From positions 264,843 to 328,842 of the forward strand of contig DIWA01000026.1 in assembly GCA_002422525.1 (NCBI GenBank): a stretch of 64,000 nt of DNA, written 5' to 3'. The first letter of the stretch is position 1, and every line of letters begins with the position of its first letter. This DNA is from Candidatus Hydrogenedentes bacterium UBA6118. Lineage in GTDB: Bacteria > Hydrogenedentota > Hydrogenedentia > Hydrogenedentales > SLHB01. Position numbers and translations under genes: made by a program. This document shows positions 7,288 through 52,331 of this stretch, piece by piece. The notes beneath the pieces were generated by a model. That model was not told the DNA's origin. It was given only the letters and a program-made list of their open reading frames with translations, and ran no database searches.

Positions 7288-8274
7288 GTGATGTCGGACA
7301 ACCGTACGCGTTGGGGCGTGCTCGCCCCGGGACGCATCGCCCGCAAGTTCGCCGAGGCCGTGGGCGGCGCAGGCGACGCACTGGTCGCCGTGGGGTCGCG
7401 ATCGAAGGACCGCGCCGACGCCTTCGCCGACGAGTTCGACATCCCGCGCCGCTACGACAGCTACGCCGCGCTCGTTGCGGATCCCGACATCGACGCGATC
7501 TACGTATCGAGCCCGCACCCGTACCACCGCGACCATGCCGTGCTCGCGCTCGACGCCGGCAAGGCCGTCCTGTGCGAGAAGCCGATCGCCGTCAACGCGG
7601 CCCAGGCGCGCGACATCGTCGCCGCCGCCCGGCGCAACGGCAAGTTCGCCATGGAGGCGATGTGGTCCCGGTTCCTACCCATCGTCGCCCGGACGCGCGC
7701 CCTGATCGCCGAAGGCGCGATCGGCGCGCCCCGCATGGTGAGCGCCGACTTCGGGTTCCGCGCGAACGTCGATCCGAAAGGCCGCCTGTTCGACCCCGCC
7801 CTCGGCGGCGGCGGCCTGCTCGACGTCGGCTGCTACCCCGTCTCTTTCGCCCACATGATCCTCGGCAAGCCCGTCGAGGCGAAGGCCCTGGCCTGCCTCG
7901 GCGAGACCGGCGTCGACGAGCAGAACGTGGTCACGATGAAGTTCGCCGACGGCGCCCTCGCCGTCACGACCTCCGGCGTGCGGACCACCACCCCGCTCGA
8001 CGCCGTCGTCCTCGGAACCGACGGCCGCATCCGCATCCACAGCCCCTGGTTCGACGGCGTCGCGCTCACGCTCACGCGCCCCGGCGAGGAGGACCGGCGT
8101 ATCGAAGAGCCCCGCGTCGAGAACGGCTTCGAGTACGAGGTGCGCGAAGTCGCGCGCTGCCTCCGCGAAGGCCTCCTCGAGAGCCCCGTGCTCCCGCTCG
8201 ACGAGTCCGTGGCGATCATGGAGACCCTCGACCAGGCCCGCGCCCAGTGGGGCCTCCGCTACCCCATGGAATGA
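7288..8274 (+). CDS. Gfo/Idh/MocA family oxidoreductase
   Basis: N-terminal Rossmann WGVLAPGRIARKF, EKP motif (LCEKPIAV) and a C-terminal alpha/beta domain. Confidence 0.8.
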   Translation: MMSDNRTRWGVLAPGRIARKFAEAVGGAGDALVAVGSRSKDRADAFADEFDIPRRYDSYAALVADPDIDAIYVSSPHPYHRDHAVLALDAGKAVLCEKPIAVNAAQARDIVAAARRNGKFAMEAMWSRFLPIVARTRALIAEGAIGAPRMVSADFGFRANVDPKGRLFDPALGGGGLLDVGCYPVSFAHMILGKPVEAKALACLGETGVDEQNVVTMKFADGALAVTTSGVRTTTPLDAVVLGTDGRIRIHSPWFDGVALTLTRPGEEDRRIEEPRVENGFEYEVREVARCLREGLLESPVLPLDESVAIMETLDQARAQWGLRYPME

Positions 8275-8334
8275 TCCGAGGGGAGGGCCTGCGGCCTCGC
8301 ACGCCCTCCTCCGTCCTCACGGAACCGGCGCCTC

Positions 8335-8681
8335 CTACTCGCGCCCCGCGGCGCGTTCGGCGTCCTCCGCATACCGCTCGTACCAGGGCTTGCGCTCCGC
8401 CGCCTCCTCCGCGAGAGGGCTGTCGGGATACTCCGCCAGCAGCTCGCCCAGCACCCCCGCGGCGTCGTCGTGGCGCTGCGCAAAGCTGTAGGCCCGCGCC
8501 AGGTCGAGCATCACCTCGTCGCGCAACGCGAAGTCCGGCGCGTTGAGGTAGAGGTCCTCGAGTTCTCCCAGCGACGACTCGGTAAGACCGCCGACCGTGC
8601 AACGCTTGTGGCGCCCATAGAAGGCGTAGGCCGTGTCGGGGAACTCCGTCAGCAGTCGGCTCAGCGCGCCGCCCCGAGTCG
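8335..8681 (-). pseudogene. 3' (C-terminal) fragment of a type-1 secreted-array paralog, split by IS3 insertion
   Basis: Its DNA is ~90% identical to the 3' end of the gene at 14106-15080. It encodes ...LNAPDFALRDEVMLDLARAY...YPDSPLAEEAAERKPWYERYAEDAERAAGRE*. Homology ends exactly at the IS boundary. Confidence 0.7.
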
Positions 8682-8863
8682 TGCGCCTACCCCCAATCTT
8701 CGACCACGGATCGGCGATTTTAGGGTGGAACCTGCCGCCCTGTACGCCATGTCGTCGAGGCCCGTGAGCCGCGTGTCGGTGATGCCGTCGCGGAGTGGAG
8801 CCCGACCCCGAAGGGGCGGCCCGCAGGGCCGAGGGCGGAGCGCAGCGACGGCATCATGCGGTC

Positions 8864-9727
8864 TCATTTCCACCCCGCTCCTTGATGGAATACCTCAGCA
8901 GGGGTTCTCTTGTCCAGCGCGCTGTGTCTCCTTTCATAGTTGTAATAGTTGAACCATGCATCAAGCCCCCGGTGCAACTCATGTCCGTCGGCGTAGGACT
9001 TGGGATAGATCTCCTCATACTTCACCGACCACCACAGGCGCTCGATAAACACGTTGTCCAGAGCCCGTCCGCGACCGTCCATGCTGATCGCGATGCCTTT
9101 GTCCAGCAGCACGCGCGTGAAAGCCTGCGAAGTGAACTGCGAGCCCTGGTCCGTGTTGAAGATCTCGGGCGTGCCCCGGCTCAGCGCCCGCTCCAGGGCG
9201 ACCACGCAGAACAGGCCCTCAAGCGTGTTCGAGAGCTCCCATGCCAGCACGAAGCGACTGCGCCACTCCATGACCGCCGTCAGGTACATGAACCCATGAC
9301 GCATCGGAACGTAGGTGATGTCCGTGCTCCAGACCTGGTTCACCCGATCGATCCGCAGATCACGCAGCAAATAGGGGTAGATCACGTGTCCGGGCGCCGG
9401 CTTGCTCGTATGCGGCCCCGGCGTGATCGCCTGGAGCCCCATCCGCTGCATCAGCCGACTTACCCTCTTGCGGTTCACCGCGTGGCCCTGCTCCGCGAGC
9501 CAGTCCGTCATCCGCGGAGACCCGAACTCCGGATGGCGCATGTACTGCTCGTCGATGAGCCGCATCAGCACAAGGTTCTCTTCAGACTCCGGGGCGGGCA
9601 CGTAGTAGAAACTCGACCGAGGAACGCCTGCCAACCTGCATTGCCGCCGAACCGAGAGCCCGGCGCTGGAATCCACCCAGCCCCGGCGCGTTGAAAGCGG
9701 CAGGCTCATAGCTTTTTTTCCAGCCAC
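8864..9727 (-). CDS. IS3-family transposase OrfB (DDE/rve integrase domain)
   Basis: 287 aa with an rve-like core (...WSTDITYVPMRHGFMYLTAVMEW...FNTDQGSQFTS...ERLWWSVKYEEIY). Confidence 0.85.
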   Translation of the reverse strand: MAGKKAMSLPLSTRRGWVDSSAGLSVRRQCRLAGVPRSSFYYVPAPESEENLVLMRLIDEQYMRHPEFGSPRMTDWLAEQGHAVNRKRVSRLMQRMGLQAITPGPHTSKPAPGHVIYPYLLRDLRIDRVNQVWSTDITYVPMRHGFMYLTAVMEWRSRFVLAWELSNTLEGLFCVVALERALSRGTPEIFNTDQGSQFTSQAFTRVLLDKGIAISMDGRGRALDNVFIERLWWSVKYEEIYPKSYADGHELHRGLDAWFNYYNYERRHSALDKRTPAEVFHQGAGWK

Positions 9728-9990
9728 CGGATATCCATCTTCAACCGGCCGATCTCCTCGTAGAGCGGAGCCGTCAACTCCTCCTCGCTCTTGCCGCGCG
9801 CATCCTTGCCCGACGAGAACAACTCGGGAGCCTTCGTCACAAGCTGCTTCTTCCAGGTCGAGATCTGGTTGGGATGCACCTTGTACTCCGCCGCCAGCGC
9901 CGCCAGGGTCTTCACGCCCTTGACCGCCTCAAGCGCAACCTGAGCCTTGAACTTCTCCGTGAATGTCCGTCGTCGTCTTCCCACGTCCAT
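9706..9990 (-). CDS. IS3-family transposase OrfA (HTH); a -1 frameshift into OrfB is expected
   Basis: 94 aa with a leucine-zipper-like tail. The 22-nt overlap with orfB contains AAAAAAG. Confidence 0.8.
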   Translation of the reverse strand: MDVGRRRRTFTEKFKAQVALEAVKGVKTLAALAAEYKVHPNQISTWKKQLVTKAPELFSSGKDARGKSEEELTAPLYEEIGRLKMDIRWLEKKL

Positions 9991-10062
9991 GCGTCCTTTC
10001 CTACCAGCTCAAGGACGCAAATTCCACCTAAGCCCCTGGTCCGAAAATCGGGGGCAACCGCA

Positions 10063-10678
10063 TCGCGAACGAGTTGAGCTCGAACCCATTCGTCTTCAGC
10101 CCTTCCGTCCACAATGCCAGCGCCTCGCTCTCGCGACCTTCGGGCGCGCGCACCGTGATCTCCAGCCAGTTCGTCAGGACGCTCGGGCGCTTGCCGGCGG
10201 GCGCCTCCTGCCCGTCCGCCGGAGCCACCTGCACCTCCACCCGAAACCTGTGCACCCCTGGACGGTCCAGCACAAATGCGCTGGTCCCGCCGTACGCCGT
10301 CAGGAGGTCGCGTACCGTGTACGCCCCGCCCGGCGCCAGCTCGATGCGGTTGGCGCGGGAGTAAGATCCAGAGGACGCGCGGACGTAGCGCGCGTGCTCC
10401 TCGCTCCCCGGTCGCTGTTGGTACACCGTCGTGGAGCCGTCGCCAATCTCCCAGGGCGCGTTCACCCGCAGCGGATCCTGCGTGACGTTCGTCAGCGTCA
10501 GCTCCAACACCAGCGGTTCGCAGCACACATACGTCTGCTTCGGCGACCCGATGGTGTAGGCCACGCTTCCGGAAGCCGCGCCCGCCTCGCCGAACGCGGC
10601 CCCGCCCGCCAGCAACACGAGCCCCAGTGCAGCCGCGATGAACCACCCGCCGCCGTTTCTGCGTCTCTCTGCGTCCAT
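10063..10678 (-). pseudogene. 5' (N-terminal) fragment of the same type-1 paralog disrupted by IS3
   Basis: Signal peptide MDAERRRNGGGWFIAAALGLVLLAGGAAFG plus the SPKQTYVCCEPLVLELTLTNV domain, ~85% identical to the paralog at 14106-15080. The track ORF reads through into the IS to 10028. Confidence 0.7.
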
Positions 10679-10753
10679 GTCCGCCTCCCTGCCCCCAGTT
10701 CGTGCGTCTCCCCGTCACGGCGCCTCGCTGAGCATCTCCCTGATCCTCCCTCC

Positions 10754-11812
10754 TCACGGAACCGGCGGGTCTTCCTCGCCGCGGAGCAGGCGTTCGACGT
10801 ACTCCGTGTGGCGGCTGTCGGGGAAGCGCTCGCGCATCGCGTCGCAGATCTCCTGCGCCTCCGCCTCCATGTGCGCGCTCAGGTAGGCCTGCGTCAACTG
10901 CACCATCGCGCTGCTCAACAGCGGGAAGTCCGCCGCGTCCGCATCCCGCACGAACGCCTCGAACATCTCGACCCGCGACTGCTGCGCCTGCGCGATCCGC
11001 TGGCCCATCTCCGGGATCGGCGCTCGAGACGCTTCCAGAACGCTCCGGTGCGCTTCGCCGGCAACCCAGATCATCCGTTGATAGAGCCCGAACACCGTGT
11101 CTCCGAACTCCGTCGCCAGTCGCTCCCGCGCCTTCCGCGCCCTCTCCCGAACCGCAGGATCCCGGCTCCGGCCGCCGCGCAATACATCGCCGAACAGCGC
11201 ACTGGCGTCGCGATCCCGGCCTTGGGCCGCGACGACCTTGACCTCCAGCACGTTCGACCGAACCAACCTGCCGCAGTGCGCATCCGCCGTGTTCTCGGGG
11301 TCGGTCACGCAAGGCAGGTACGCGCACATGACCTCGTACACGCCCGTGCGAGTGAACGGGATTCCTGCCCCGGGACCCTGCGACCGGCCCACGTACTCCA
11401 GCAGCTTGCCGCCCTTCAGGGACGCGCCGGGCTCCACCAGCGCGATCTTCTCAGAGAAGTCATCGAAGAACTCCAACGGTCTCACGTCGTAGCCGTCGCC
11501 GTCCGGCTCGGTGATATGCACGTCCACGTTAGGTTCCAGGATCCATACGCTCTCCTCACCGGCATACGTGATCCGCCAGTCCAGGGCGAGCGGCTCGTTC
11601 GGCAGAAGGGTTGTTTTCGGCGAGGATACCGTCAGCGTGAACGGCAGATCCGGCGCCGCTTCGTCGTCGCCCATGCCGCTCCCGGTGTGCGCAAAGGGCG
11701 CGTCGCGCTCCACCGCATCACTAGCGAGGGACGAAACGGCCAGCACGGCGCAGAGCACCGTGCCGAACAGTCTGCGGCGACTGATGTTCCTGTCGCATCG
11801 CACCAGCATCAT
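10754..11812 (-). CDS. secreted paralog, type 2 (SPKTT beta-sandwich + FPDS helical tail family)
   Basis: Probable start at MMLVRCDRNISRRRLFGTVLCAVLAVSSLA (signal peptide); the track ORF starts with GTG at 11953. C-terminus ...EAFVRDADAADFPLLSSAM...RERFPDSRHTEYVERLLRGEEDPPVP. Paralogous to 16191-17243 and 17315-18376. Confidence 0.65.
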   Translation of the reverse strand: MMLVRCDRNISRRRLFGTVLCAVLAVSSLASDAVERDAPFAHTGSGMGDDEAAPDLPFTLTVSSPKTTLLPNEPLALDWRITYAGEESVWILEPNVDVHITEPDGDGYDVRPLEFFDDFSEKIALVEPGASLKGGKLLEYVGRSQGPGAGIPFTRTGVYEVMCAYLPCVTDPENTADAHCGRLVRSNVLEVKVVAAQGRDRDASALFGDVLRGGRSRDPAVRERARKARERLATEFGDTVFGLYQRMIWVAGEAHRSVLEASRAPIPEMGQRIAQAQQSRVEMFEAFVRDADAADFPLLSSAMVQLTQAYLSAHMEAEAQEICDAMRERFPDSRHTEYVERLLRGEEDPPVP

Positions 11813-11865
11813 CGTGATCACCTCCCTGTTTGGCCGCGCAAGACGACCATGCACTCCGCTACGTC

Positions 11866-13800
11866 CTAGTACGTGAAGTAGAATGCATTGCCTCGGATAT
11901 GGGCCTTGCATAGGTCGCAGAACGTTCCGGCTACGCCACTGCGCATCAGGCACACGTCTGCGGGATCTGGATGGTCTGCAAGGCCAAAGAAGTGGCCGAC
12001 CTCGTGCGCTGCGACGCGATCCGTCGTGAGCGCAAGGTCCTCGGAGATGCTCTCCACAAAGACAGCAGCGACAGGTGCTTCATCGTGGTGCAATGATGCG
12101 CCTCCCAAGACTCGCTCCTCGTCACATCCTGGGAAGCCCCCTTCAGGGTTGGGATCCCCGTCCCGCGCGTAACATGGGTCATAGCACACAACAACCTGCC
12201 CCGCCCAGTATCTGGCATCTGCCGGACTTCCGCAGTACTGCCTCAGGAACTCCGGCATGGCGTAGTTGTCGTCGCCACGGTAGACGTAGTCATAGTGACT
12301 GCTAGGGTCCCATGGGGCATACGCATGCACAGGCATATTCCGTCTGAACGGCACATCCGACGTGTCTTCCCCGGTATCGAACCTGGCCTCAATGTACGCC
12401 TCCTGAAGCGAGGCGACGATGGTGTCCGTCGGCGCGGGCGGAAGGGCGCCCCCCGGATCCGTGTCCTCCGTGTCTATCCGGTACGGGTCGCCCGACGACG
12501 CATTGGCGGTGATGTCAGGCGGCGTGCCGTGGAGCGTGAAGGCCGTGTCTGCCGAGTTCTGCCAAACGACATAGCGCCCTGGATCGAAGTCGGACCTGTT
12601 CGGATCGACAACCGCTCCGATGAGCTGATCGCAGCGGTAGGGCGTGACAAGCCACTCCGAGTGCGTCGGCCCCCAGTCCGCCGTGTCGTCCTCCAGGTAG
12701 CCCGAGCCCGTGTGGTGACTCGACAGAGCGGTGCTGTTCCCGGTAACGACGCCGAAAACCTCGCTGGGCGAAGGCGCCCCCATCGCGTCGCGTTCTATGT
12801 GCAGCGATCGCCACACGGTCAGCATCTCGGTCATGGCGCCGACGGGCGGCGTGAGCCCGTAGTCGGCCGAACCCTGCGAACCCAGCCCCGTCGAGTCGTT
12901 GATGCAAGCCGCGGTCACGCGGTAGTTGTCGCCCGGATTGAGGCTCACTACAAGCACTGCCTCTGCCACCCCGTTCGCGTCGGTGCTGGCGGTCACTGTT
13001 GTGCTGGCAGGTTCGCCCGCCCAGCCGCCAAGGCCGCGGTTGTCCGGACCGGTGACCCCCCCATTGGGATCGACCGGGGCGGTGGTCGACGACGGGTCGT
13101 CGACGTCCCAGACGCGAAAGTAGACCGTGATCCCGGCGATCGGCGGTTCGACTGTCGCCTTCACGCTCACGCGGTCCCTCCGACTCGGGTAGGCGTCGTT
13201 GTAGGTCAGTTTGTCTGGAAAGATGCGCTTGCTGCCGTTGTTGTTGGGACAGTCGTCGAGGTCCCGGTTGGTCGCATGGTGTTTCTGCCACACGACCTCC
13301 GTCACCGCGGCGAGCGCCAGTTGAACGCCGATCTGCCCCGAGGGATCGTCGGCGACAAGCCCCGGATCGTCGATGGTGCAGTGGGCCGCGTAGAGCCCCG
13401 GATCGAGATCCGCGGGCAGGGTCCACTTGCGCACCCAGTACCGATCCGTCGCGGCTGTCGTTCCGCCGTCCGTCGCCCACCCGGTGAAGGACACATAGTC
13501 GCCGTCCACCACGGGCACGGTCAGCATATAGTCGGTATCACTCATCGCGCCATACAGCCACAGCGTCTGCTGGAAAGCCCTCAGCATGAGCCGATGGACA
13601 CCGCCCACGCTCGGCACTTCATCCCCCGCGCCGTTCTGCACCTGGAGCTCGGTGTCCGCGATGTACGGAAACGGGAAGTACATCTGCGCATCGGTGACGC
13701 GCGGCGTCAGCCACAAGAGCGATGTCGCGAACACGCCCGTCGCGATCGCGGCCCACCGCGCCGCACGCCGTGCTCCTCCATTCAGCCTGGTTCTCTGCAT
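11866..13800 (-). CDS. secreted 644-aa protein with a snapalysin-like zinc-metalloprotease motif HEVGHFFGLADH near the C-terminus
   Basis: Signal peptide MQRTRLNGGARRAARWAAIATGVFATSLLWLTP. Long beta-rich body. HExxHxxGxxD(H) matches the M7/snapalysin consensus HETGHVLGLPDHY. It is embedded in the paralog array and preceded by a conserved promoter/leader. Confidence 0.7.
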   Translation of the reverse strand: MQRTRLNGGARRAARWAAIATGVFATSLLWLTPRVTDAQMYFPFPYIADTELQVQNGAGDEVPSVGGVHRLMLRAFQQTLWLYGAMSDTDYMLTVPVVDGDYVSFTGWATDGGTTAATDRYWVRKWTLPADLDPGLYAAHCTIDDPGLVADDPSGQIGVQLALAAVTEVVWQKHHATNRDLDDCPNNNGSKRIFPDKLTYNDAYPSRRDRVSVKATVEPPIAGITVYFRVWDVDDPSSTTAPVDPNGGVTGPDNRGLGGWAGEPASTTVTASTDANGVAEAVLVVSLNPGDNYRVTAACINDSTGLGSQGSADYGLTPPVGAMTEMLTVWRSLHIERDAMGAPSPSEVFGVVTGNSTALSSHHTGSGYLEDDTADWGPTHSEWLVTPYRCDQLIGAVVDPNRSDFDPGRYVVWQNSADTAFTLHGTPPDITANASSGDPYRIDTEDTDPGGALPPAPTDTIVASLQEAYIEARFDTGEDTSDVPFRRNMPVHAYAPWDPSSHYDYVYRGDDNYAMPEFLRQYCGSPADARYWAGQVVVCYDPCYARDGDPNPEGGFPGCDEERVLGGASLHHDEAPVAAVFVESISEDLALTTDRVAAHEVGHFFGLADHPDPADVCLMRSGVAGTFCDLCKAHIRGNAFYFTY

Positions 13801-13894
13801 GTCTCACGTCCTCCGTGGGAACCGCCGTTACAGAACATGCATGCCGTCTCCCGCCTCAGCGGGACGGCGAATGGGCTGAACTCCGGTCCGGCAA

Positions 13895-14011
13895 TCACCT
13901 CCCTCCAATCGGGAGGAACGCCGGGAAGAGACACGACACAGACGGGAAGGCCGAGCGACGGATGCGTCGCCCGAAGGGGGGATAGGCTGCTGTCAGTCCA
14001 GAAGGTCTCAT
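13895..14011 (-). pseudogene. relic 5' end of a type-2 paralog (38-codon ORF MRPSGLTAAYPPFGRRIRRS...), now the 5' leader of the metalloprotease gene
   Basis: Nearly identical to the first codons and 5' UTR of the gene at 17315-18376, then diverges and stops. Confidence 0.4.
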
Positions 14012-14057
14012 CGCACGGCGTCCCAGCCTCGCGCTGTATACCTCGGCCTATGCATCG

Positions 14058-14086
14058 ACTCTACACCGTATTGGATGGGCTGTCAA
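14058..14086 (-). promoter_or_regulatory. sigma70-type promoter TTGACA-17 bp-TAGAGT with an upstream A-tract (copy 2)
   Basis: On the minus strand: aaaaaaggtcTTGACAgcccatccaatacggtgTAGAGTcg. It is near-identical to the promoter at 18423-18451 and is an extreme AT-rich outlier in a ~70% GC region. Confidence 0.5.
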
Positions 14087-14105
14087 GACCTTTTTTCGGC
14101 GCCTC

Positions 14106-15080
14106 CTACTCGCCCTCCGCGGCCTCGCGCGCGGCGGCGCGTTCGGCATCCTCCGCATACCGCTCGTACCAGGGCTTGCGCTCCGCCGCCTCCTCCGCGA
14201 GAGGGCTGTCCGGATACTCCGCCAGCAACTCGCCCAACACCGCCGCGCCATCGCTGTAGCGTTGCGCGGATCTGTACGCCCGCGCCAGGTCGAGCATCAC
14301 CTCGTCGCGCAACGCGAAGTCCGGCGCGTTGAGGTAGAGGTCCTCGAGTTCTCCCAGCGACGACTCGGTAAGACCGCCGACCGTGCAACGTTTGTGGCGC
14401 CCATGGAAGGCGTAGACCGTATCGGGGAACTCGGTCAACAGCCGGCTCAGGGCGCCGCCCCGAGTCGCGAACGAGTTAAGGTCGAACCCATTCGTCTTCA
14501 GTCCTTCCGTCCACAATGCCAGCGCCTCGCTCTCGCGACCTTCGGGCGCGCGCACCGTGACCTCCAGCCAGTTCGTCAGAACGCTCGGGCGCTTGCCGGA
14601 GGGCGCGTCCTGCCCGTCCGCCGGCGCAAGCTGCGCCTCCACCCGAAACCTGTGCACGCCTGGACGGTCCAGCACAAACGCGCTGGTCCCGCCGTACGCC
14701 GTCAGGAGGTCGCGGACCGTGTACGCCCCGCCCGGCGCCAGCTCGACAATGTTGGGGGAGAGGTAATCGCTGAAGATCGCGGGGACGTAGCGTGCCTGTT
14801 CCTCGCTCCCCGGTCGCTGCTGGTACACCGTCGTGCGGCCGTCGCCAATGTCCCAGGGCGCGTTCACCTGCACCGGATCCTGCGTGACGTTCGTCAGCGT
14901 CAGCTCCAACACCAGCGGTTCGCAGCACACATACGTCTGCTTCGGCGACCTGATGGTGTAGGCCACGCTTCCGGAAGCCGCGCCCGCGTCGCCGAACGCG
15001 GCCCCGCCCGCCAGCAACACAAGCCCCGCCGCGGCCGCGATGAGCCACCCGCCGCCGTTCCTGTGTCTCTTCGTATTCAT
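14106..15080 (-). CDS. secreted paralog, type 1 (SPKQT beta-sandwich + YPDS helical tail), intact copy
   Basis: Signal peptide MNTKRHRNGGGWLIAAAAGLVLLAGGAAFG; GGGAGG RBS; tail LAEYPDSPLAEEAAERKPWYERYAEDAERAAAREAAEGE. Confidence 0.7.
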   Translation of the reverse strand: MNTKRHRNGGGWLIAAAAGLVLLAGGAAFGDAGAASGSVAYTIRSPKQTYVCCEPLVLELTLTNVTQDPVQVNAPWDIGDGRTTVYQQRPGSEEQARYVPAIFSDYLSPNIVELAPGGAYTVRDLLTAYGGTSAFVLDRPGVHRFRVEAQLAPADGQDAPSGKRPSVLTNWLEVTVRAPEGRESEALALWTEGLKTNGFDLNSFATRGGALSRLLTEFPDTVYAFHGRHKRCTVGGLTESSLGELEDLYLNAPDFALRDEVMLDLARAYRSAQRYSDGAAVLGELLAEYPDSPLAEEAAERKPWYERYAEDAERAAAREAAEGE

Positions 15081-15116
15081 GTCTACCTCCCTGCCCCCAG
15101 TTCGTGCCTTCCCCCG

Positions 15117-16115
15117 TCACCGCGCCTCGCGCGCGGCGGCGCGTTCGGCGTCCTCCGCATACCGCTCGTACCAGGGCTTGCGCTCCGCCGCCTCCTCCGC
15201 GAGAGGGCTGTCCGGATACTCGGCCAGCAACTCGCCCAGCACCGCCGCGCCATCGCTGTAGCGTTGCGCGGATCTGTACGCCCGCGCCAGGTCGAGCATC
15301 ACCTCGTCGCGCAACGCGAAGTCCGGCGCGTTGAGGTAGAGGTCCTCGAGGATCGCCTGCCGGCACGCCTCCTGCGAGCGCCCCTGCAACGTCGACTCGG
15401 GCAACGCGCCCCGCTTGGCCAGCGCGGACCGCGCGTGCCGCCCGTAGACCGTGTCCGGGTGATCCGCGACCAGCGCCGCGACCGCCTCATCGGACTGATC
15501 CAGCGATCCCAGGTCGAACGCAGCCCGCTGGAGCGCCGCCAGCCAGAGCGCCAAGGCCTCCGCGTCGCGGTCCGCCGGGGCGCCGACCGTCACCTGGACC
15601 TCGTTGCTCACGACGGCCGGCCAGCCCGACGCCGGCTTGCCGCCATCGCCGGAGTCCACCGTGAACCGCGCCCGGAACCGGTACGCGCCCGGCAACGCGA
15701 GAACGAACGGGTTGGCGCCTGCTCGGTCATCGGTCTCCATCGTCGCAAGGATCCCCCGCAGGCGGATCGCGCCGTCCGCGGCAAGCGGCGCCCGGAGCGG
15801 GACCATGAGGCTGAGGGTCGACGGCGGCTGGTACACGCGCCATTCCGCCTCGCCCGGACCGCACACCTCGATCATGAGGGGCGCCTGCCCGACCTGCGGC
15901 GGCAACGTCACCGTGAGCGCCCCCTCCGCGTCGGTCTCAAGCGCAACATCCAGCACGATGGGCTCACCGACGAGACACTGCGCGTCGCCGCTATGCCGGA
16001 GCGTCACGCGGATCGCGTCCGACGCGCACCACGCGGCCCCGCCCGCCAGCAACACAAGCCCCACTGCGGCCGCGATGAACCCGCCGCCGCCATTCCTGCG
16101 TCTCTTCGTGTTCAT
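15117..16115 (-). CDS. secreted paralog, type 1 variant (divergent middle, same signal peptide and tail)
   Basis: Probable start MNTKRRRNGGGGFIAAAVGLVLLAGGAAWCAS with the conserved GGGAGGCAGACATG leader. The C-terminal ~75 aa are near-identical to 14106-15080. Confidence 0.65.
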   Translation of the reverse strand: MNTKRRRNGGGGFIAAAVGLVLLAGGAAWCASDAIRVTLRHSGDAQCLVGEPIVLDVALETDAEGALTVTLPPQVGQAPLMIEVCGPGEAEWRVYQPPSTLSLMVPLRAPLAADGAIRLRGILATMETDDRAGANPFVLALPGAYRFRARFTVDSGDGGKPASGWPAVVSNEVQVTVGAPADRDAEALALWLAALQRAAFDLGSLDQSDEAVAALVADHPDTVYGRHARSALAKRGALPESTLQGRSQEACRQAILEDLYLNAPDFALRDEVMLDLARAYRSAQRYSDGAAVLGELLAEYPDSPLAEEAAERKPWYERYAEDAERAAAREAR

Positions 16116-16190
16116 GTCTGCCTCCCTGCCCCCAGTTCGTGCCTTCCCCCCGTCACGGCGTCTCCCGCGCATCTCCCTGATCCTCCGTCC

Positions 16191-17243
16191 TCACGGAACC
16201 GGCGGGTCCTCCTCGCCGCGAAGCAGGCGCTCGACATGCTCCGTGTGGCGGCTGTCCGGGAAGCGCTTGCGCATGGTCTCGCAGATCTCCTGCGCCTCCG
16301 CCTCCATGTGCGCGCTCAGGTAGGCCTGCGCCAACTGCTGCATCGCGCTGTCCAGCAGCGGGAAATCCGCCGCCTCCGCATCCCGCACGAACGCCTCGAA
16401 CATCTCGACCCGCGACTGCTGCGCCTGCGCCCGCGTATGCTCCACGTCCCGCGTGTCCGCATACCCGGCCGCGTGCACGCCCCAGCGCCCGGCCACGGCG
16501 ATGCGCGGCAGTCTCTCGTACAGCCCGAACACCGTGTCGCCGAACTCCGTCGCCAGTCGCTCCGCGGCCGCCGCGGCCTCCTCACGGGCCGCTTCCTTGG
16601 GGCTATAGGTCCCGAGCAGCACCGTCCGGTACAGCGCGCCCGCCTCGGCGTCGCGTCCCTTGGCCGGGTTCACTGTCACTGTGAGTACATTCGACCGGAC
16701 CAGCTTGCCCCGCCGCGACCCCGTGGCGCGATCCGGATCGGTCACCAAAGGGCCGAAGGCGCAGCGCACCTCGTACACGCCCGGTCGAGAGAACGGCACG
16801 ACCACAGGGGGGACGCCCCGCCGCGCAGCCGTCTGCAACAGCATGCCGCTCGCATGGACGTACCCCGGCTCGACCTGAACAGGAGGAGGCTGCGAGGTCA
16901 TGAAATGCGTCGTTTCCCGCAAGTTGTAGCCGGTTCCGCCCGGCTCGGTGATGTGCACCATCACCTCCGGCTTCCTGATCCAGATGGACTCGGAACCTGT
17001 GTAGGAAAGCCGCCAGTCCAGAACCAGCGGCTCGTTCGGCAGAAGCGTCGTCTTCGGCGACGATATCGTCAGCGTGAACGGGAGATCCGGCGCATTCTCC
17101 TCGTCCTTCGCGTACCTCAGCCACTGCTCGAAAGGGGCGTCCAGGTCGAGCCCGGCCGCCGCCGCAACCGGACAGACCAAGGCCGAGAGCACGACGATGC
17201 TCGCGACCAACCCTGCGTATCTGACTCTGCTCTCATCCGACAT
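16191..17243 (-). CDS. secreted paralog, type 2
   Basis: Signal peptide MSDESRVRYAGLVASIVVLSALVCPVAAAAG; SSPKTTLLPNEPLVLDW domain. The 3' ~230 nt are near-identical to the 3' end of 17315-18376. Confidence 0.7.
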   Translation of the reverse strand: MSDESRVRYAGLVASIVVLSALVCPVAAAAGLDLDAPFEQWLRYAKDEENAPDLPFTLTISSPKTTLLPNEPLVLDWRLSYTGSESIWIRKPEVMVHITEPGGTGYNLRETTHFMTSQPPPVQVEPGYVHASGMLLQTAARRGVPPVVVPFSRPGVYEVRCAFGPLVTDPDRATGSRRGKLVRSNVLTVTVNPAKGRDAEAGALYRTVLLGTYSPKEAAREEAAAAAERLATEFGDTVFGLYERLPRIAVAGRWGVHAAGYADTRDVEHTRAQAQQSRVEMFEAFVRDAEAADFPLLDSAMQQLAQAYLSAHMEAEAQEICETMRKRFPDSRHTEHVERLLRGEEDPPVP

Positions 17244-17314
17244 ACCGCATCCCTCCCGATCGAACAGACCCCATCGCGCCGCCGGAGTTCGCCCCTACTC
17301 GCCCTCCTCCGTGC

Positions 17315-18376
17315 TCACGGAACCGGCGGGTCCTCCTCGCCGCGGAGCAGGCGCTCGACGTACTCCGTGTGGCGGCTGTCCGGGAAGCGCTTACGCATGG
17401 TCTCGCAGATCTCCCGCGCCTCCGCCTCCATGTGCGCGCTCAGGTAGGCCTGCGCCAACTGCTGCATCGCGCTGTCCAGCAGCGGGAAATCCGCCGCCTC
17501 CGCATCCCGCACGAACGCCTCGAACATCTCCACCCGCGACTGCTGGGCTCTGCGCAGATCGCCCTGTCCGCCCCGGCTTGCCTCCCAGACGCCGTGCTCC
17601 GACGCCGCTGCAACCCGCGACTGCCGTTGGTAGAGCCCAAACACCGTGTCGCCGAACTCCGCAACCAACCGCTCCGCGGCGGACACTGACTCGTCGCGAC
17701 TGACCTGGCCGTCTCCATAGACACCGAACATGACCGTTCGGTACAACGCGCCCGCCTCGGCGTCGCGTCCCTTAGCGGGCTTCACGGTCACCGTCAGTAC
17801 GTTCGAGTGCACCGGCCTGCCGCCAACGGTCGCTTGGCGCGTCTCCGGGTCAGCCAACGCAGGCGCGAGCCTGCACTGAACCTGGTAGACGCCGGGCCGC
17901 GCGAAGGGTATGACCATCCGCGTCGCCGAGGGTTTGGAGACGATCTGCAGCAGCTTGCCGCCGGTCCGTACGCAGCCCGGTTCCATCGCCTCGACCACGG
18001 CGCGGTCGAAGTGCACATGCATCCACCGCTTCACGTCGTAGCCGTCGCCATCCGGCTCCGTGATGTGCACCTTCACGTCCGGCGCAACGACCCAGATCGT
18101 CTCATTCCCGGCATACGTGATCCGCCAGTCCAGGGCGAGCGGCTCGTTCGGCAGAAGGGTCGTCTTCGGCGACGAAATCGTCAGCGTCAACGACAGGTCC
18201 GGCGCCGCTTCGTCGTCGCCCATGCCGCTCCCGGTGTGCGCAGACGGCGCGTCGCGCTCCGCCGCGGTCGCAACCGGACAGAGCAATGCGAAGAGGAGAA
18301 CGGCGAGATGCACAGGCGAGCGACGGATGCGTCGCCCGGAGGGGGGATAGGCTGCTGTCATTCCTGAAGGTCTCAT
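17315..18376 (-). CDS. secreted paralog, type 2 (first gene of the array, directly after the conserved promoter)
   Basis: N-terminus MRPSGMTAAYPPSGRRIRRSPVHLAVLLFALLCPVATAA. Same domain organisation and the FPDSRHTEYVERLLRGEEDPPVP tail. Confidence 0.7.
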   Translation of the reverse strand: MRPSGMTAAYPPSGRRIRRSPVHLAVLLFALLCPVATAAERDAPSAHTGSGMGDDEAAPDLSLTLTISSPKTTLLPNEPLALDWRITYAGNETIWVVAPDVKVHITEPDGDGYDVKRWMHVHFDRAVVEAMEPGCVRTGGKLLQIVSKPSATRMVIPFARPGVYQVQCRLAPALADPETRQATVGGRPVHSNVLTVTVKPAKGRDAEAGALYRTVMFGVYGDGQVSRDESVSAAERLVAEFGDTVFGLYQRQSRVAAASEHGVWEASRGGQGDLRRAQQSRVEMFEAFVRDAEAADFPLLDSAMQQLAQAYLSAHMEAEAREICETMRKRFPDSRHTEYVERLLRGEEDPPVP

Positions 18377-18422
18377 CGCACGGCGTCCCTGCCTCGCGCT
18401 GGATACCTCGGCCTACGCGTCC

Positions 18423-18451
18423 ACTCTATGCCGTCTGCGCGCGGCTGTCAA
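18423..18451 (-). promoter_or_regulatory. sigma70-type promoter TTGACA-17 bp-TAGAGT with an upstream A-tract (copy 1), ~40-nt 5' UTR to ATG 18376
   Basis: On the minus strand: ggtaaaaaggtcTTGACAgccgcgcgcagacggcaTAGAGTggacg. It is duplicated at 14058-14086. Confidence 0.55.
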
Positions 18452-18569
18452 GACCTTTTTACCGGGCTCAGGCGCCCCGCAGACGGCAAAAGGCCCCGAC
18501 GCGGGGCGTCAGGGCCTCTGCAATGCGCCGCCGCTCCGTCGCGGAGGGCGGGATGTCTGCGTTCGCGGA

Positions 18570-19904
18570 CTAGATCTTCCAGCCTTCCCGATTGTCGCGG
18601 GTGAGCAGCGCGTTCGCCTCGGGGACGTTCGTCACCTGCATGTTGGCGGCGTCCCACTCGATGCGCTGGCCGGTGCGGACCGCGATGTTGCCCAGCAGCA
18701 CGATCTCGCTGAACGGACCGGAGTACTCGAAGTTCGAGCACGCGGCCGGTCCGCCCTTGCACGCGCGGAACCAATCCTCGTAGGGGCTGTTGTCGGGCAC
18801 GCGCTCGATGTACGGCTCGGGGACCACCACCGCGGCATTCTCCGATTCCGGATGCAGCCGCGGGTTGCCGCCATACGTGCCGCAGGACATGTAGCCCTTG
18901 GAGCCGATGAACAGCGTGCCGTTGTCGCCGTCGCCGAGCTTCTCCTCGGCCGGAATCCCCTCGGGACGCTCGGGCAGCTCGCCGCCGTCGTACCAGTAGA
19001 ACGTCAACGCGGGCCAGGTGCGGCCGTCGGCCTCGCGCTCGGGGAAGTCGTACCGGATGACCGACTTCACGGGCCCGCTCTGGGCGGTGTTGCCCTCCTG
19101 GCGAACGCACTCGACGGAGGTCGGCGCGCCGAGGTGCAGCGCCCAGTAGGCCGGGTCCATGATGTGGCAGGCCATGTCGCCGAGGGCGCCGCAGCCGAAG
19201 TCCCACCAGCCGCGCCAGTTGAACGGCGCATAGCCGGCGTTGTAGTCGCGATAGGGCGCCGGGCCGAGCCAGAGGTCCCAGTCCATGTGCGCGGGAACTT
19301 CCTCCGCCGGGAGCGGGTCGACGAGGCCCTGGGGCCAGATCGGCCGATCGGTCCAGCAGTGCACCTCGGTGACGTCGCCCAGCGCGCCGCTCCAGATCAC
19401 CTCGCAGAGCTGCCGCACGCCTTCGTCCGCGTGGCCCTGGTTGCCCATCTGCGTGGCCACGCCGTACCGCCGCGCCGCTTCAGTGAGCATGCGCGCCTCG
19501 GCGACGGTGTGCGTGAGGGGCTTCTGCACGTAGACGTGGATGCCTTGCTCCATCGCCGCCATCGCCGCGACGGCGTGCGTGTGGTCCGGCGTCGAGATCG
19601 TCACCGCGTCGATGTTCTCCTTCTCGAGCATCACGCGGAAGTCCTTGTAGTAGGTCGCGTTCGGGAAGTTGCGGATCGATTCGGCCGCGCGCACGTCGTC
19701 AACGTCGCACAACGCCACGACGTTGTGTCCGCGACAGGCCCAGATATCGCTGGCGCCTTTGCCGCCGACGCCGATGCCCGCGATGTTGAGCTTCTCGTTC
19801 GGCGAAGGCGCCGCCTTCGCGATGCGCGATCCGGTGGCGCACCCGGCCGCAGCCATCGCCGCGCCCATCAGGAACGTCCGTCGTGTGAACCGTCTGGATT
19901 TCAT
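18570..19904 (-). CDS. Gfo/Idh/MocA-family oxidoreductase with a Tat signal (GH109-like)
   Basis: Tat motif RRTFLMGAAMAAAG; Rossmann IAGIGVGGKG; VYVQKPLTHT. Confidence 0.85.
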   Translation of the reverse strand: MKSRRFTRRTFLMGAAMAAAGCATGSRIAKAAPSPNEKLNIAGIGVGGKGASDIWACRGHNVVALCDVDDVRAAESIRNFPNATYYKDFRVMLEKENIDAVTISTPDHTHAVAAMAAMEQGIHVYVQKPLTHTVAEARMLTEAARRYGVATQMGNQGHADEGVRQLCEVIWSGALGDVTEVHCWTDRPIWPQGLVDPLPAEEVPAHMDWDLWLGPAPYRDYNAGYAPFNWRGWWDFGCGALGDMACHIMDPAYWALHLGAPTSVECVRQEGNTAQSGPVKSVIRYDFPEREADGRTWPALTFYWYDGGELPERPEGIPAEEKLGDGDNGTLFIGSKGYMSCGTYGGNPRLHPESENAAVVVPEPYIERVPDNSPYEDWFRACKGGPAACSNFEYSGPFSEIVLLGNIAVRTGQRIEWDAANMQVTNVPEANALLTRDNREGWKI

Positions 19905-51974: not shown

Positions 51975-52331
51975 TGGTGGAGGCGGCGGGAATCGAACCC
52001 GCGTCCGAAGGTGCATCGACGTAAGCGTCTACGTGTGTAGCCCGTCCTTTAGGATTCGCCGCCTTGGACCGCGTCGGGCTCGCTGACCAAGGCCGCTAGG
52101 CGGAGGACGTACTCTCCACCGACGGCTCCGCCGTCCCTCGGCTTCGAGGCCTGCTGTCGACGCCTTAGCCCCCTAGCAGGCGGTCAGGGGTAAGACGGGA
52201 GGCCTAAGTTAGGCCGCCATTGCCAAAGGTTCGTTGGCAGTTGTGAAATGATCGGCTTTTTACGAGGCCAGCCGACCAACCTCGACACGCAACTCACGCT
52301 TCATCACCCCCGTCGAAACCTTGTCGCCCCC
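51975..52331 (-). ncRNA. ssrA: tmRNA (transfer-messenger RNA)
   Basis: 5' GGGGGCGACAAGGTTTCGACGGGGG and 3' GGGTTCGATTCCCGCCGCCTCCACCA. Internal tag ORF GCC AAC GAA CCT TTG GCA ATG GCG GCC TAA encodes ANEPLAMAA. Confidence 0.8.

What the first reader, a model, noticed from the sequence alone, without database searches (positions are those of the whole stretch)
8335..18470. Tandem array of seven paralogous secreted proteins (two sub-families) with an embedded snapalysin-motif protein: candidate undescribed secreted multigene system
Seven same-strand genes encode proteins sharing a signal peptide, an 'SPK(T/Q)T...EPL' beta-sandwich domain and a helical C-terminus ending in 'FPDS/YPDS'. One copy is split by an IS. 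Two sub-families alternate. Type 1 ends ...LAEYPDSPLAEEAAERKPWYERYAEDAERAAARE; type 2 ends ...RKRFPDSRHTEYVERLLRGEEDPPVP. A 644-aa secreted protein with an HExxHxxGxxDH zinc motif sits in the middle. Intergenic regions are short and modular, with conserved RBS/leader blocks. I could not recognise the family as any named system. Its organisation is a strongly expressed, rapidly diversifying secreted family plus a protease. That would fit a protease substrate or inhibitor set, a surface-variation family or an adhesin family.
Basis: partly seen in the sequence, partly recalled or inferred. Interest (0 to 1): 0.85.

Follow-up and report, generated by a model that had tools for sequence, protein, structure and literature searches.

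The report
Variable metalloprotease plus partner-gene array
The cluster is an expanded local copy of a widespread but undescribed two-gene unit: an exported zinc protease whose catalytic end differs between strains, followed by an exported partner protein that changes with it and probably blocks it.

Summary
On the minus strand of 8335-18451 there are six paralogous exported proteins (T family), not seven. Five are intact and one is split by an IS3-family element. A 644-aa metzincin-type protease (MP) sits among them. Two identical promoter blocks divide the region into P-T2a-T2b-T1a-T1b and P-MP-T2c-T1c::IS.

The family is not lineage-restricted. A profile search finds 1,203 protein clusters. 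In 58 of 80 genome loci from several phyla that hold an MP homologue, a T gene starts directly downstream on the same strand.

Among close strains, MP residues 1-480 are 91-100% identical, but the catalytic domain (481-644) is only about 50% identical. Each of the four catalytic variants seen is followed by a different T gene. In T the beta-sandwich varies (17-55% identity) and the C-terminal TPR is constant (79-95% within a type). The beta-sandwich resembles two protease-binding domains, B. subtilis IPI and the AsaP1 propeptide.

Best reading: a polymorphic protease with a cognate inhibitor or immunity partner, plus orphan partner genes. A dedicated chaperone is the main rival. No function was tested. 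This is a new variant of a known kind.

The parts
18423..18451 (-). Promoter-like site P1 (TTGACA-17-TAGAGT) upstream of T2a
   Evidence: This is one of only two sigma-70-like sites in 8000-19000. It lies inside the duplicated 151-nt block 18317-18467 (D8).
17315..18376 (-). T2a, a 353-aa type-2 partner protein. It is an orphan here; its close relative follows protease variant B in another strain.
   Evidence: ORF. It is 60-61% identical to T2b and T2c. L003 carries MP variant B followed by a T gene 85% (aa) / 95% (nt) identical to T2a. dN/dS is 0.17-0.44 in the beta-sandwich and N-terminal helical region.
16191..17243 (-). T2b, a 350-aa type-2 partner protein. It is an orphan here; its relative follows protease variant E in L093.
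   Evidence: L093 holds an MP with the P0015-type catalytic domain, then a T2b-like gene (90%), then a T1b-like gene.
15117..16115 (-). T1a, a 332-aa type-1 partner protein (the ORF is open up to 16172)
   Evidence: JGI aa. Against T1b its beta-sandwich is 30% identical and its C-terminal TPR 95%.
14106..15080 (-). T1b, a 324-aa type-1 partner protein, and the one that was modelled. Signal-like segment aa 1-35, beta-sandwich aa 39-177, helical/TPR aa 182-322.
13952..14102 (-). Second copy of the promoter/leader block. P2 lies at 14058-14086. The block also holds the first ~20 codons of a T2a-like start, giving a 38-codon ORF at 13895-14011.
   Evidence: The block is 87% identical to 18317-18467 (D8). 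Sequence, promoter. The same block precedes MP in L003.
11866..13800 (-). MP, a 644-aa exported multi-domain metzincin-type metallopeptidase. It has a signal-like N-terminus, an Ig-like domain (about aa 160-340, nt 12781-13323) and a C-terminal catalytic domain.
11866..12360 (-). Polymorphic catalytic module of MP (aa 481-644). It starts at the conserved DVPFRRN motif and holds HEVGHFFGLADH (nt 11971-12006) and the Met-turn CLM.
   Evidence: aa 1-480 are 91-100% identical to P0015, P0016 and L093, while aa 481-644 are 50-52% identical. P0017 diverges from about aa 330.
10754..11812 (-). T2c, a 352-aa type-2 partner protein directly downstream of MP. It is the presumed cognate partner of catalytic variant A.
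   Evidence: Its position matches the conserved MP-then-T arrangement seen in 58 of 80 loci.
10063..10678 (-). T1c, 5' part (type 1), interrupted by the IS
   Evidence: 86% identical (aa) to T1b residues 1-207. Junction.
8682..10062 (-). IS3-family insertion sequence (orfA 9706-9990, orfB 8864-9727). It is not part of the system but disrupts T1c.
   Evidence: Pfam HTH_Tnp_1, HTH_21, rve and rve_3. Terminal inverted repeats and a CGA duplication.
8335..8681 (-). T1c, 3' part (type 1)
   Evidence: 92% identical (aa) to T1b residues 206-319. Joining it to the 5' part gives an intact 319-aa ORF.
8302..8342 (-). Repeated 41-nt gene-end/RBS block. Other copies lie at 10739, 16176 and 17300. This copy is a remnant at the array's end.
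   Evidence: (D9).

Best explanation
The locus is a recombination-prone array built from a widespread two-gene cassette.

**The two genes**
- Gene 1 (MP) is a Sec-exported protein with a conserved N-terminal and Ig-like trunk. Its C-terminal metzincin catalytic domain is swapped between strains.
- Gene 2 (T) lies immediately downstream and is also exported. Its variable N-terminal beta-sandwich, of the IPI / AsaP1-propeptide type, changes together with the protease domain. Its C-terminal TPR module stays constant.

**Proposed mechanism (inferred)**
The T beta-sandwich binds and blocks the catalytic domain of its cognate MP in the periplasm. It would act as a specific inhibitor or immunity protein.

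**This window**
- It holds one complete cassette, MP(variant A)-T2c-T1c, with T1c recently hit by an IS.
- It also holds four orphan partner genes (T2a, T2b, T1a, T1b) behind a duplicated copy of the cassette promoter.
- Relatives of T2a and T2b sit behind other MP variants in other strains. The orphans would then protect against protease variants made by neighbours.

**Shown versus inferred**
- Shown: the gene anatomy, the homology, the folds, the conserved adjacency, the strain polymorphism and the pairing of variants.
- Inferred: binding, inhibition, the compartment, and any role in competition.
For: 1. **Conserved adjacency from the MP side.** In 58 of 80 genome loci with an MP homologue, a T-family ORF starts within -200..+600 nt downstream on the same strand. 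The loci come from Planctomycetota, Acidobacteriota, Verrucomicrobiota, Nitrospirales, Hydrogenedentota, Armatimonadota and Cyanaurora. Three further loci have no downstream DNA, and about five more give weak hits.
2. **Conserved adjacency from the T side.** Four T proteins were sampled first. Three have an MP directly upstream and one sits in a T-T-T array.
3. **A self-contained pair.** No third gene recurs around the pair; the largest cluster of flanking ORFs occurs in 3 of 80 loci. Alternating (MP-T)n arrays exist. One apparent in-frame MP-T fusion exists in L041.
4. **Strain polymorphism of MP.** aa 1-480 are 91-100% identical across strains, while the catalytic domain after DVPFRRN is about 50% identical. 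All variants keep HExxH and the CLM Met-turn.
5. **One-to-one pairing of variants.** Variant A is followed by T2c, B by a T2a-like gene, E by a T2b-like gene, and C by a P0069-like T.
6. **The variable parts abut.** The T beta-sandwich is 17-55% identical between paralogues, against 79-95% for the C-terminal TPR within a type. The variable part of MP therefore adjoins the variable part of T, flanked by constant arms.
7. **Co-divergence.** Across 59 pairs, r(MP catalytic, T beta-sandwich) = 0.59. The partial r given the MP mid region is 0.43, with 0 of 500 permutations reaching it. The reverse partial r is 0.18.
9. **Same compartment.** MP and all T proteins have N-terminal signal-like segments.
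10. **Orphan T genes are maintained.** They are intact, and dN/dS is 0.1-0.5 in most regions.
Against: - No binding or inhibition was tested, and no complex model could be made.
- The beta-sandwich similarity is at Ig-fold level with borderline E-values. The IPI authors themselves caution that such matches may reflect only the all-beta fold, and IPI did not inhibit metallopeptidases (PMC3901451).
- A 300-aa protein with a TPR domain looks more like a chaperone or adaptor than a classical small inhibitor.
- The co-divergence of the MP catalytic domain and the T beta-sandwich could arise from physical linkage alone, since they are adjacent on the DNA.
- The pairing of variants rests on four short metagenome contigs.
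- All catalytic variants share one fold, unlike classical polymorphic toxins.
- No delivery machinery is linked.
- dN/dS gives no clear sign of positive selection.
Confidence: 0.5

Rival explanations
1. T is a dedicated chaperone, trans-acting propeptide or secretion factor for MP. It would resemble CpaB for the Acinetobacter metzincin CpaA, or lipase-specific foldases. It holds or folds the catalytic domain in the periplasm until export. Inhibition would be a by-product, and the orphan copies would be leftovers of recombination.
For: - The TPR domain is typical of chaperones and adaptors; the closest matches are BamD and CpoB.
- CpaB is encoded next to cpaA, binds it in the periplasm, and its tail blocks the active site (PMC7542363).
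- The AsaP1 pro-region match suits a folding propeptide supplied in trans.
- The tight MP-T adjacency fits this model equally well.
Against: - Four orphan T genes are kept intact, with a dedicated promoter and purifying selection. T-only arrays such as L088 also exist. Neither is expected for a one-to-one chaperone.
- The hypervariability of the catalytic domain itself still needs an outside selective force.
- T has no membrane anchor like that of CpaB.
Confidence: 0.25
2. T proteins are substrates or processed cargo of MP. They could be pro-proteins cleaved to release their C-terminal tails, or adaptors that deliver substrates to MP.
For: The adjacency is conserved. The tails are distinct and type-specific. 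The status of IPI as inhibitor versus competing substrate was itself debated (PMC3901451).
Against: The constant part of T is the tail and TPR, while the part that co-varies with the protease is a folded beta-sandwich. No conserved cleavage motif was seen. Substrates do not normally co-vary one-to-one with enzyme variants.
Confidence: 0.1
3. The array is a surface-variation or adhesin family, or a set of ordinary TPR envelope proteins, and the protease is only a neighbour by chance.
For: The proteins have an Ig-like domain and are exported. Copy number varies between strains.
Against: The protease link holds across phyla and from both sides. There are no anchoring signals, repeats or cell-wall domains. 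No copies lie elsewhere in the window.
Confidence: 0.04

Closest known systems
Polymorphic toxin-immunity cassettes (CDI, Rhs, colicin E-Im type; Zhang et al. 2012, PMC3482391)
   Same: A conserved N-terminal trunk carries a strain-variable C-terminal enzymatic domain that begins at a short conserved motif (here DVPFRRN). The protective gene lies immediately downstream and changes with it. There are extra orphan protective genes. The locus sits between conserved housekeeping flanks and differs between strains.
   Different: All variants are one fold (metzincin), not a menagerie of toxins. Only a Sec signal is present, with no T5SS, T6SS or T7SS, Rhs or filamentous domains. The partner is exported and large (beta-sandwich plus TPR). 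The listed Tox-MPTase families have no assigned immunity protein, and MP does not hit the Pfam Tox-MPTase models. Toxicity is untested.
Secreted metzincin with an adjacent periplasmic inhibitor (serralysin/AprA with Inh/AprI; own knowledge)
   Same: An exported metzincin is encoded with a signal-peptide-bearing inhibitor in the same operon. The inhibitor is thought to protect the producer's periplasm.
   Different: Inh/AprI is a small beta-barrel unrelated to T. There is no strain-level cassette polymorphism and there are no orphan arrays.
CpaA-CpaB of Acinetobacter (PMC7542363, PMC4713064)
   Different: CpaB is membrane-anchored, not TPR and not IPI-like. It is needed for type II secretion. 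It is not polymorphic and not amplified.
B. subtilis IPI (BsuPI, PF12690; 3isy) and the AsaP1 propeptide (2x3a)
   Same: These are the best solved matches of the T beta-sandwich, by both structure and sequence profile. Both bind a peptidase. The reading of AsaP1 residues 40-152 as the inhibitory pro-region is from my own knowledge.
   Different: IPI targets a subtilisin and is a single domain not linked to its protease gene (PMC3901451). The AsaP1 domain is fused in cis, N-terminal to an aspzincin. The window's T proteins show no PF12690 hit at E<=1. Relatives score 14-18 bits against a cut-off of 22.9.
Orphan immunity gene arrays (e.g. downstream of CDI/Rhs loci; acquired interbacterial defence clusters in Bacteroidales; own knowledge)
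   Same: There are several divergent protective genes without their cognate toxin, kept intact, near mobile elements.
   Different: Here all orphans belong to one family, share homogenised 3' ends and sit under a duplicated cassette promoter.

Membership tests
Metzincin metallopeptidases (MP) | Extended zinc motif HExxHxxGxx(H/D) | tested here: met
   HEVGHFFGLADH lies at aa 599-610. Relatives have either H or D at the third-ligand position.
Metzincin metallopeptidases (MP) | Met-turn downstream of the zinc motif | tested here: met
   CLM lies at aa 617-619 and is conserved in all four strain variants. Its position is consistent, but its 3D placement was not inspected.
Metzincin metallopeptidases (MP) | Catalytic-domain fold | tested here: met
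Snapalysin (M7) | Family-level sequence score | tested here: not met
   Pfam M7 gives 16 bits against a cut-off of 25. NCBIfam snapalysin gives 18.6 bits against 300. Only the zinc-motif region aligns, and the protein is 644 aa and multi-domain rather than about 130 aa.
Pfam Tox-MPTase2-5 toxin domains | Match to the family models | tested here: not met
   MP has no hit at E<=1, and its 31 relatives have none at E<=0.01. Only Reprolysin_2-5, DUF4953, M10 and M43 appear. Tox-MPTase1 could not be tested because no model was found in the library output.
Polymorphic toxin system | Conserved N-terminal region with a C-terminal domain that varies between strains | tested here: met
   Identity is 91-100% for aa 1-480 against about 50% for aa 481-644. 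Four variants were seen.
Polymorphic toxin system | Cognate immunity gene immediately downstream that co-varies with the toxin domain | tested here: inconclusive
   Adjacency is met (58 of 80 loci), and four variants pair with four T types. The immunity function itself is untested, and the pairing sample is small.
Polymorphic toxin system | Toxicity to a target cell and a delivery route | not testable with these tools
   Only a Sec-type N-terminus was seen, and there is no linked secretion gene.
BsuPI / IPI-like domain (PF12690) for the T beta-sandwich | Family-level sequence score | tested here: not met
   The window T proteins have no hit. Relatives P0098 and P0051 score 17.9 and 14.2 bits against a cut-off of 22.9. 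The T profile against the 3isy sequence gives E 6e-4 to 7e-3.
BsuPI / IPI-like domain (PF12690) for the T beta-sandwich | Fold | tested here: met
TPR (TPR_6; YbgF/CpoB and BamD-like) for the T C-terminus | TPR sequence signature and fold | tested here: met
IS3 family (the inserted element) | orfA (HTH) and orfB (rve) overlapping, TG..CA inverted repeats, 3-bp target duplication | tested here: met

The most novel reading that the evidence does not exclude
The MP-T pair is a previously unrecognised class of interbacterial (or anti-eukaryote) conflict system that spans several phyla. A Sec/T2SS-exported metzincin effector acts on the envelope and has a recombining catalytic 'warhead'. A periplasmic IPI-like/TPR immunity protein neutralises it with variant specificity. 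Genomes accumulate orphan immunity genes against the variants of their neighbours. The constant arms, the MP trunk and the T TPR, serve as built-in recombination sites for cassette exchange.
Probability: 0.3. Interest if true: 0.8.

Novelty: new variant of a known kind. Interest (0 to 1): 0.62.

Why it matters
If the partner is a variant-specific inhibitor, this would be the first protease-based polymorphic effector/immunity pair with a defined immunity family. It would be found mainly in poorly studied, mostly uncultured phyla: Planctomycetota, Acidobacteriota and Verrucomicrobiota.

It would name two large unannotated protein families. One is the T family, with about 1,200 clusters at 50% identity. 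The other is the MP trunk. It would also provide natural sets of matched metzincin-inhibitor pairs for studying specificity.

It gives a clear case of how a variable cassette can be framed by constant coding arms in two adjacent genes.

Even under the chaperone reading, it defines a new dedicated partner family for exported metzincins.

Tried and rejected
- **Word-indexed homologue searches** suggested a tiny lineage-restricted family. The exhaustive profile search overturned this.
- **afdb50 fold library** was unavailable.
- **Metagenome scans.** The scan with A1 returned one trivial locus.
- **Family libraries.** Pfam, NCBIfam and PADLOC gave no family assignment for T, and PADLOC gave none for MP.
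- **Literature searches** for BsuPI with metalloprotease, for metzincin with Planctomycetes and immunity, and for the AsaP1 propeptide found no description of this pair.
- **Third conserved gene.** A search around the pair found nothing.
- **Selection.** dN/dS gave no clear positive selection.
- **RNA.** No riboswitch or structured RNA in the leaders reached Rfam thresholds. The only RNA hit in the window is a tmRNA.
- **Organism.** It could not be named. Its closest MP relatives outside its own species group are from Phycisphaerae and other Planctomycetota.
- **Snapalysin membership** was rejected on score and architecture.
- **Ordinary scattered TPR lipoproteins** was rejected because of the protease linkage.


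Full report
**1. What is in the sequence**

All relevant genes lie on the minus strand of a 65-70% G+C region. Reading 5' to 3' on that strand, the order is:
- a TTGACA-17-TAGAGT promoter-like site (18451-18423)
- T2a (17315-18376, 353 aa)
- T2b (16191-17243, 350 aa)
- T1a (15117-16115, 332 aa)
- T1b (14106-15080, 324 aa)
- a second, identical promoter-like site (14086-14058)
- MP (11866-13800, 644 aa)
- T2c (10754-11812, 352 aa)
- T1c, split into 10063-10678 and 8335-8681 by a 1381-bp IS3-family element (8682-10062)

The two promoter hits are the only ones in 8000-19000. Both lie in a duplicated 151-nt block, 13952-14102 and 18317-18467, which are 87% identical. The block also carries the leader and the first ~20 codons of T2a. 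The array therefore consists of two units: P-T2a-T2b-T1a-T1b and P-MP-T2c-T1c.

Spacers between genes are 36-75 nt. They carry GGGAGG ribosome-binding sites and repeated gene-end/leader blocks.

The IS has TG..CA inverted repeats and a CGA target duplication. Removing it restores an intact 319-aa T1c.

tblastn shows six paralogues and no others in the window. Types 1 and 2 are 26-31% identical, with E down to 1e-18. The rest of the description holds.

**2. What the proteins are**

T proteins:
- They have no family-level match in Pfam, NCBIfam or PADLOC. Only sub-threshold TPR_6/YfiO hits appear at the C-terminus.
- An AF2 model of T1b (pLDDT 81, pTM 0.79) shows a disordered signal-like N-terminus, a beta-sandwich (aa 39-177) and a helical/TPR domain (aa 182-322).
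- A sequence profile of the family recovers the same two entries as the only credible beta-sandwich hits in the PDB. IPI scores E 6e-4. AsaP1 residues 40-152, its pro-region, score E 2.5e-3 to 7e-3. CpoB (E 1e-6) and BamD (E 2e-4) are recovered for the TPR.

MP:
- It carries HEVGHFFGLADH followed by a CLM Met-turn.
- Its central part matches intimin-type Ig domains.
- It is a metzincin but not a snapalysin-family member; its scores are far below the cut-offs.

**3. The family is not rare, and the protease link is the rule**

The word-indexed searches found only about 13 T relatives. An exhaustive profile search found 1,203 clusters at E<=1e-3 and 131 at E<=1e-10. Most are 300-350 aa and align over their full length.

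MP relatives occur in Planctomycetota (many Phycisphaerae), Acidobacteriota, Verrucomicrobiota, Nitrospirales, Hydrogenedentota, Armatimonadota, a Gloeobacter-like cyanobacterium and others.

I scanned the flanks of 80 such genome loci with a T-family HMM. In 58 loci a T ORF starts within -200..+600 nt of the end of the MP ORF on the same strand. Three loci lack downstream DNA, and about five more give weak hits. Several loci are alternating (MP-T)n arrays. One locus, L041, has MP and T in a single ORF.

Sampling from the T side gave the same picture. Three of four T proteins have an MP directly upstream, and the fourth sits in a T-T-T array. No third gene recurs near the pair. The functional unit is therefore a self-contained MP-T pair.

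**4. Polymorphism and pairing**

Close relatives of this genome in other samples carry MP proteins that are 91-100% identical over aa 1-480. After the conserved DVPFRRN motif they are only about 50% identical. P0017 diverges from about aa 330. All variants keep the zinc motif and the Met-turn.

Each catalytic variant is followed by a different T gene:

| Catalytic variant | Source | Downstream T gene(s) |
|---|---|---|
| A | window | T2c |
| B | L003 | T2a-like (95% nt identity) |
| E | L093, same as P0015 | T2b-like (90%), then T1b-like |
| C | L002 | P0069-like, then P0050-like |

T2a and T2b in the window are thus partners of protease variants that this genome lacks.

The same chromosomal site, between two GFO/IDH/MocA genes, holds different arrays in different strains.

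Within T, the beta-sandwich is the variable part (17-55% identity). The last ~85 residues are nearly constant within a type (79-95%). The variable 3' end of MP and the variable 5' part of T therefore form one contiguous cassette framed by constant coding arms.

Across 59 MP-T pairs, divergence of the T beta-sandwich tracks the MP catalytic domain (r 0.59). The partial r, given the MP mid region, is 0.43, and none of 500 permutations reached it. This is higher than its tracking of the MP mid region (partial r 0.18). Physical linkage alone could contribute to this.

The orphan T genes are intact, and dN/dS is 0.1-0.5 in most regions. The highest value in a sizeable region is 0.84, for the T1b/T1c beta-sandwich; the only value above 1 is 1.76, over 32 codons of the truncated T2a/L003 C-terminus.

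**5. Mechanism**

The best-supported reading is that T is the cognate binding partner of the MP catalytic domain. It would most likely be a variant-specific inhibitor or immunity protein acting in the periplasm, with the orphans widening protection. The supports are:
- the conserved order
- the cassette co-variation
- the shared export signals
- the IPI / AsaP1-propeptide-like fold
- the maintained orphans

The main rival, which is not exclusive, is a dedicated chaperone or trans-propeptide. The model is CpaB, which is encoded next to the metzincin CpaA, binds it in the periplasm and plugs its active site (PMC7542363). The TPR domain and the CpaA structural match favour that view. The orphan arrays and the hypervariable warhead argue against it being the whole story. 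Substrate and surface-variation readings are weak.

Binding, inhibition, localisation, expression and any role in competition are all inferred.

**6. Relation to known systems**

The architecture parallels polymorphic toxin-immunity cassettes (PMC3482391). It differs in four ways:
- it has a single-fold warhead
- it has only a Sec signal
- its partner is exported and large
- it has no linked delivery system

That survey lists Tox-MPTase families without immunity partners, and MP does not match the Pfam Tox-MPTase models. It also parallels serralysin-Inh (own knowledge) and CpaA-CpaB, but T is unrelated to those partners. I found no description of this pair in the literature searched.

I rate it a new variant of a known kind, with interest 0.62.

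Noticed in passing
window 51975-52331 (-): A tmRNA gene with the tag peptide ANEPLAMAA. It is the only Rfam or ARAGORN hit in the window.
   Followed up: no
window 8682-10062: An IS3-family element. orfA and orfB overlap by 22 nt, which suggests a programmed frameshift. It has imperfect 25-nt inverted repeats and a CGA target duplication. The clean junction suggests a recent insertion.
   Followed up: yes
window 13895-14011 (-): A 38-codon ORF upstream of MP. Its first ~20 codons copy the start of T2a. The same block precedes MP in strain L003, so the T2a N-terminus may derive from this leader through a deletion or fusion. A role as a leader peptide was not examined.
   Followed up: partly
L041 9407-12037 (Thermoanaerobaculia MAG DASZEM010000001.1): MP and a T-like beta-sandwich/helical region lie in one 877-aa ORF, with the T signal-like segment retained internally. 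This is either a natural fusion or a lost stop codon.
   Followed up: partly
L005 / L029 (Phycisphaerae, 308-kb contig): A long array with three MP genes and four or five T genes, interrupted by an IS1595-family transposase. This is another case of a mobile element inside such an array.
   Followed up: no
proteins P0192, P0098, P0115: The T-type beta-sandwich also occurs as 3-5 or more tandem copies in giant proteins without the TPR part. In one protein it follows a HEAT-repeat region, and that protein ends with a transmembrane segment.
   Followed up: no
window 18570-19904 (-) and 7288-8274 (+): The array is bracketed by two GFO/IDH/MocA oxidoreductase genes. One is glycoside-3-dehydrogenase-like with a TAT-type signal. 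The same flanks border different arrays in other strains (L003, L092).
   Followed up: partly
MP aa 241-280 (window about 12961-13080): A second, smaller variable patch (58-62% identity) lies in the otherwise near-identical Ig-like trunk of MP in close strains.
   Followed up: no
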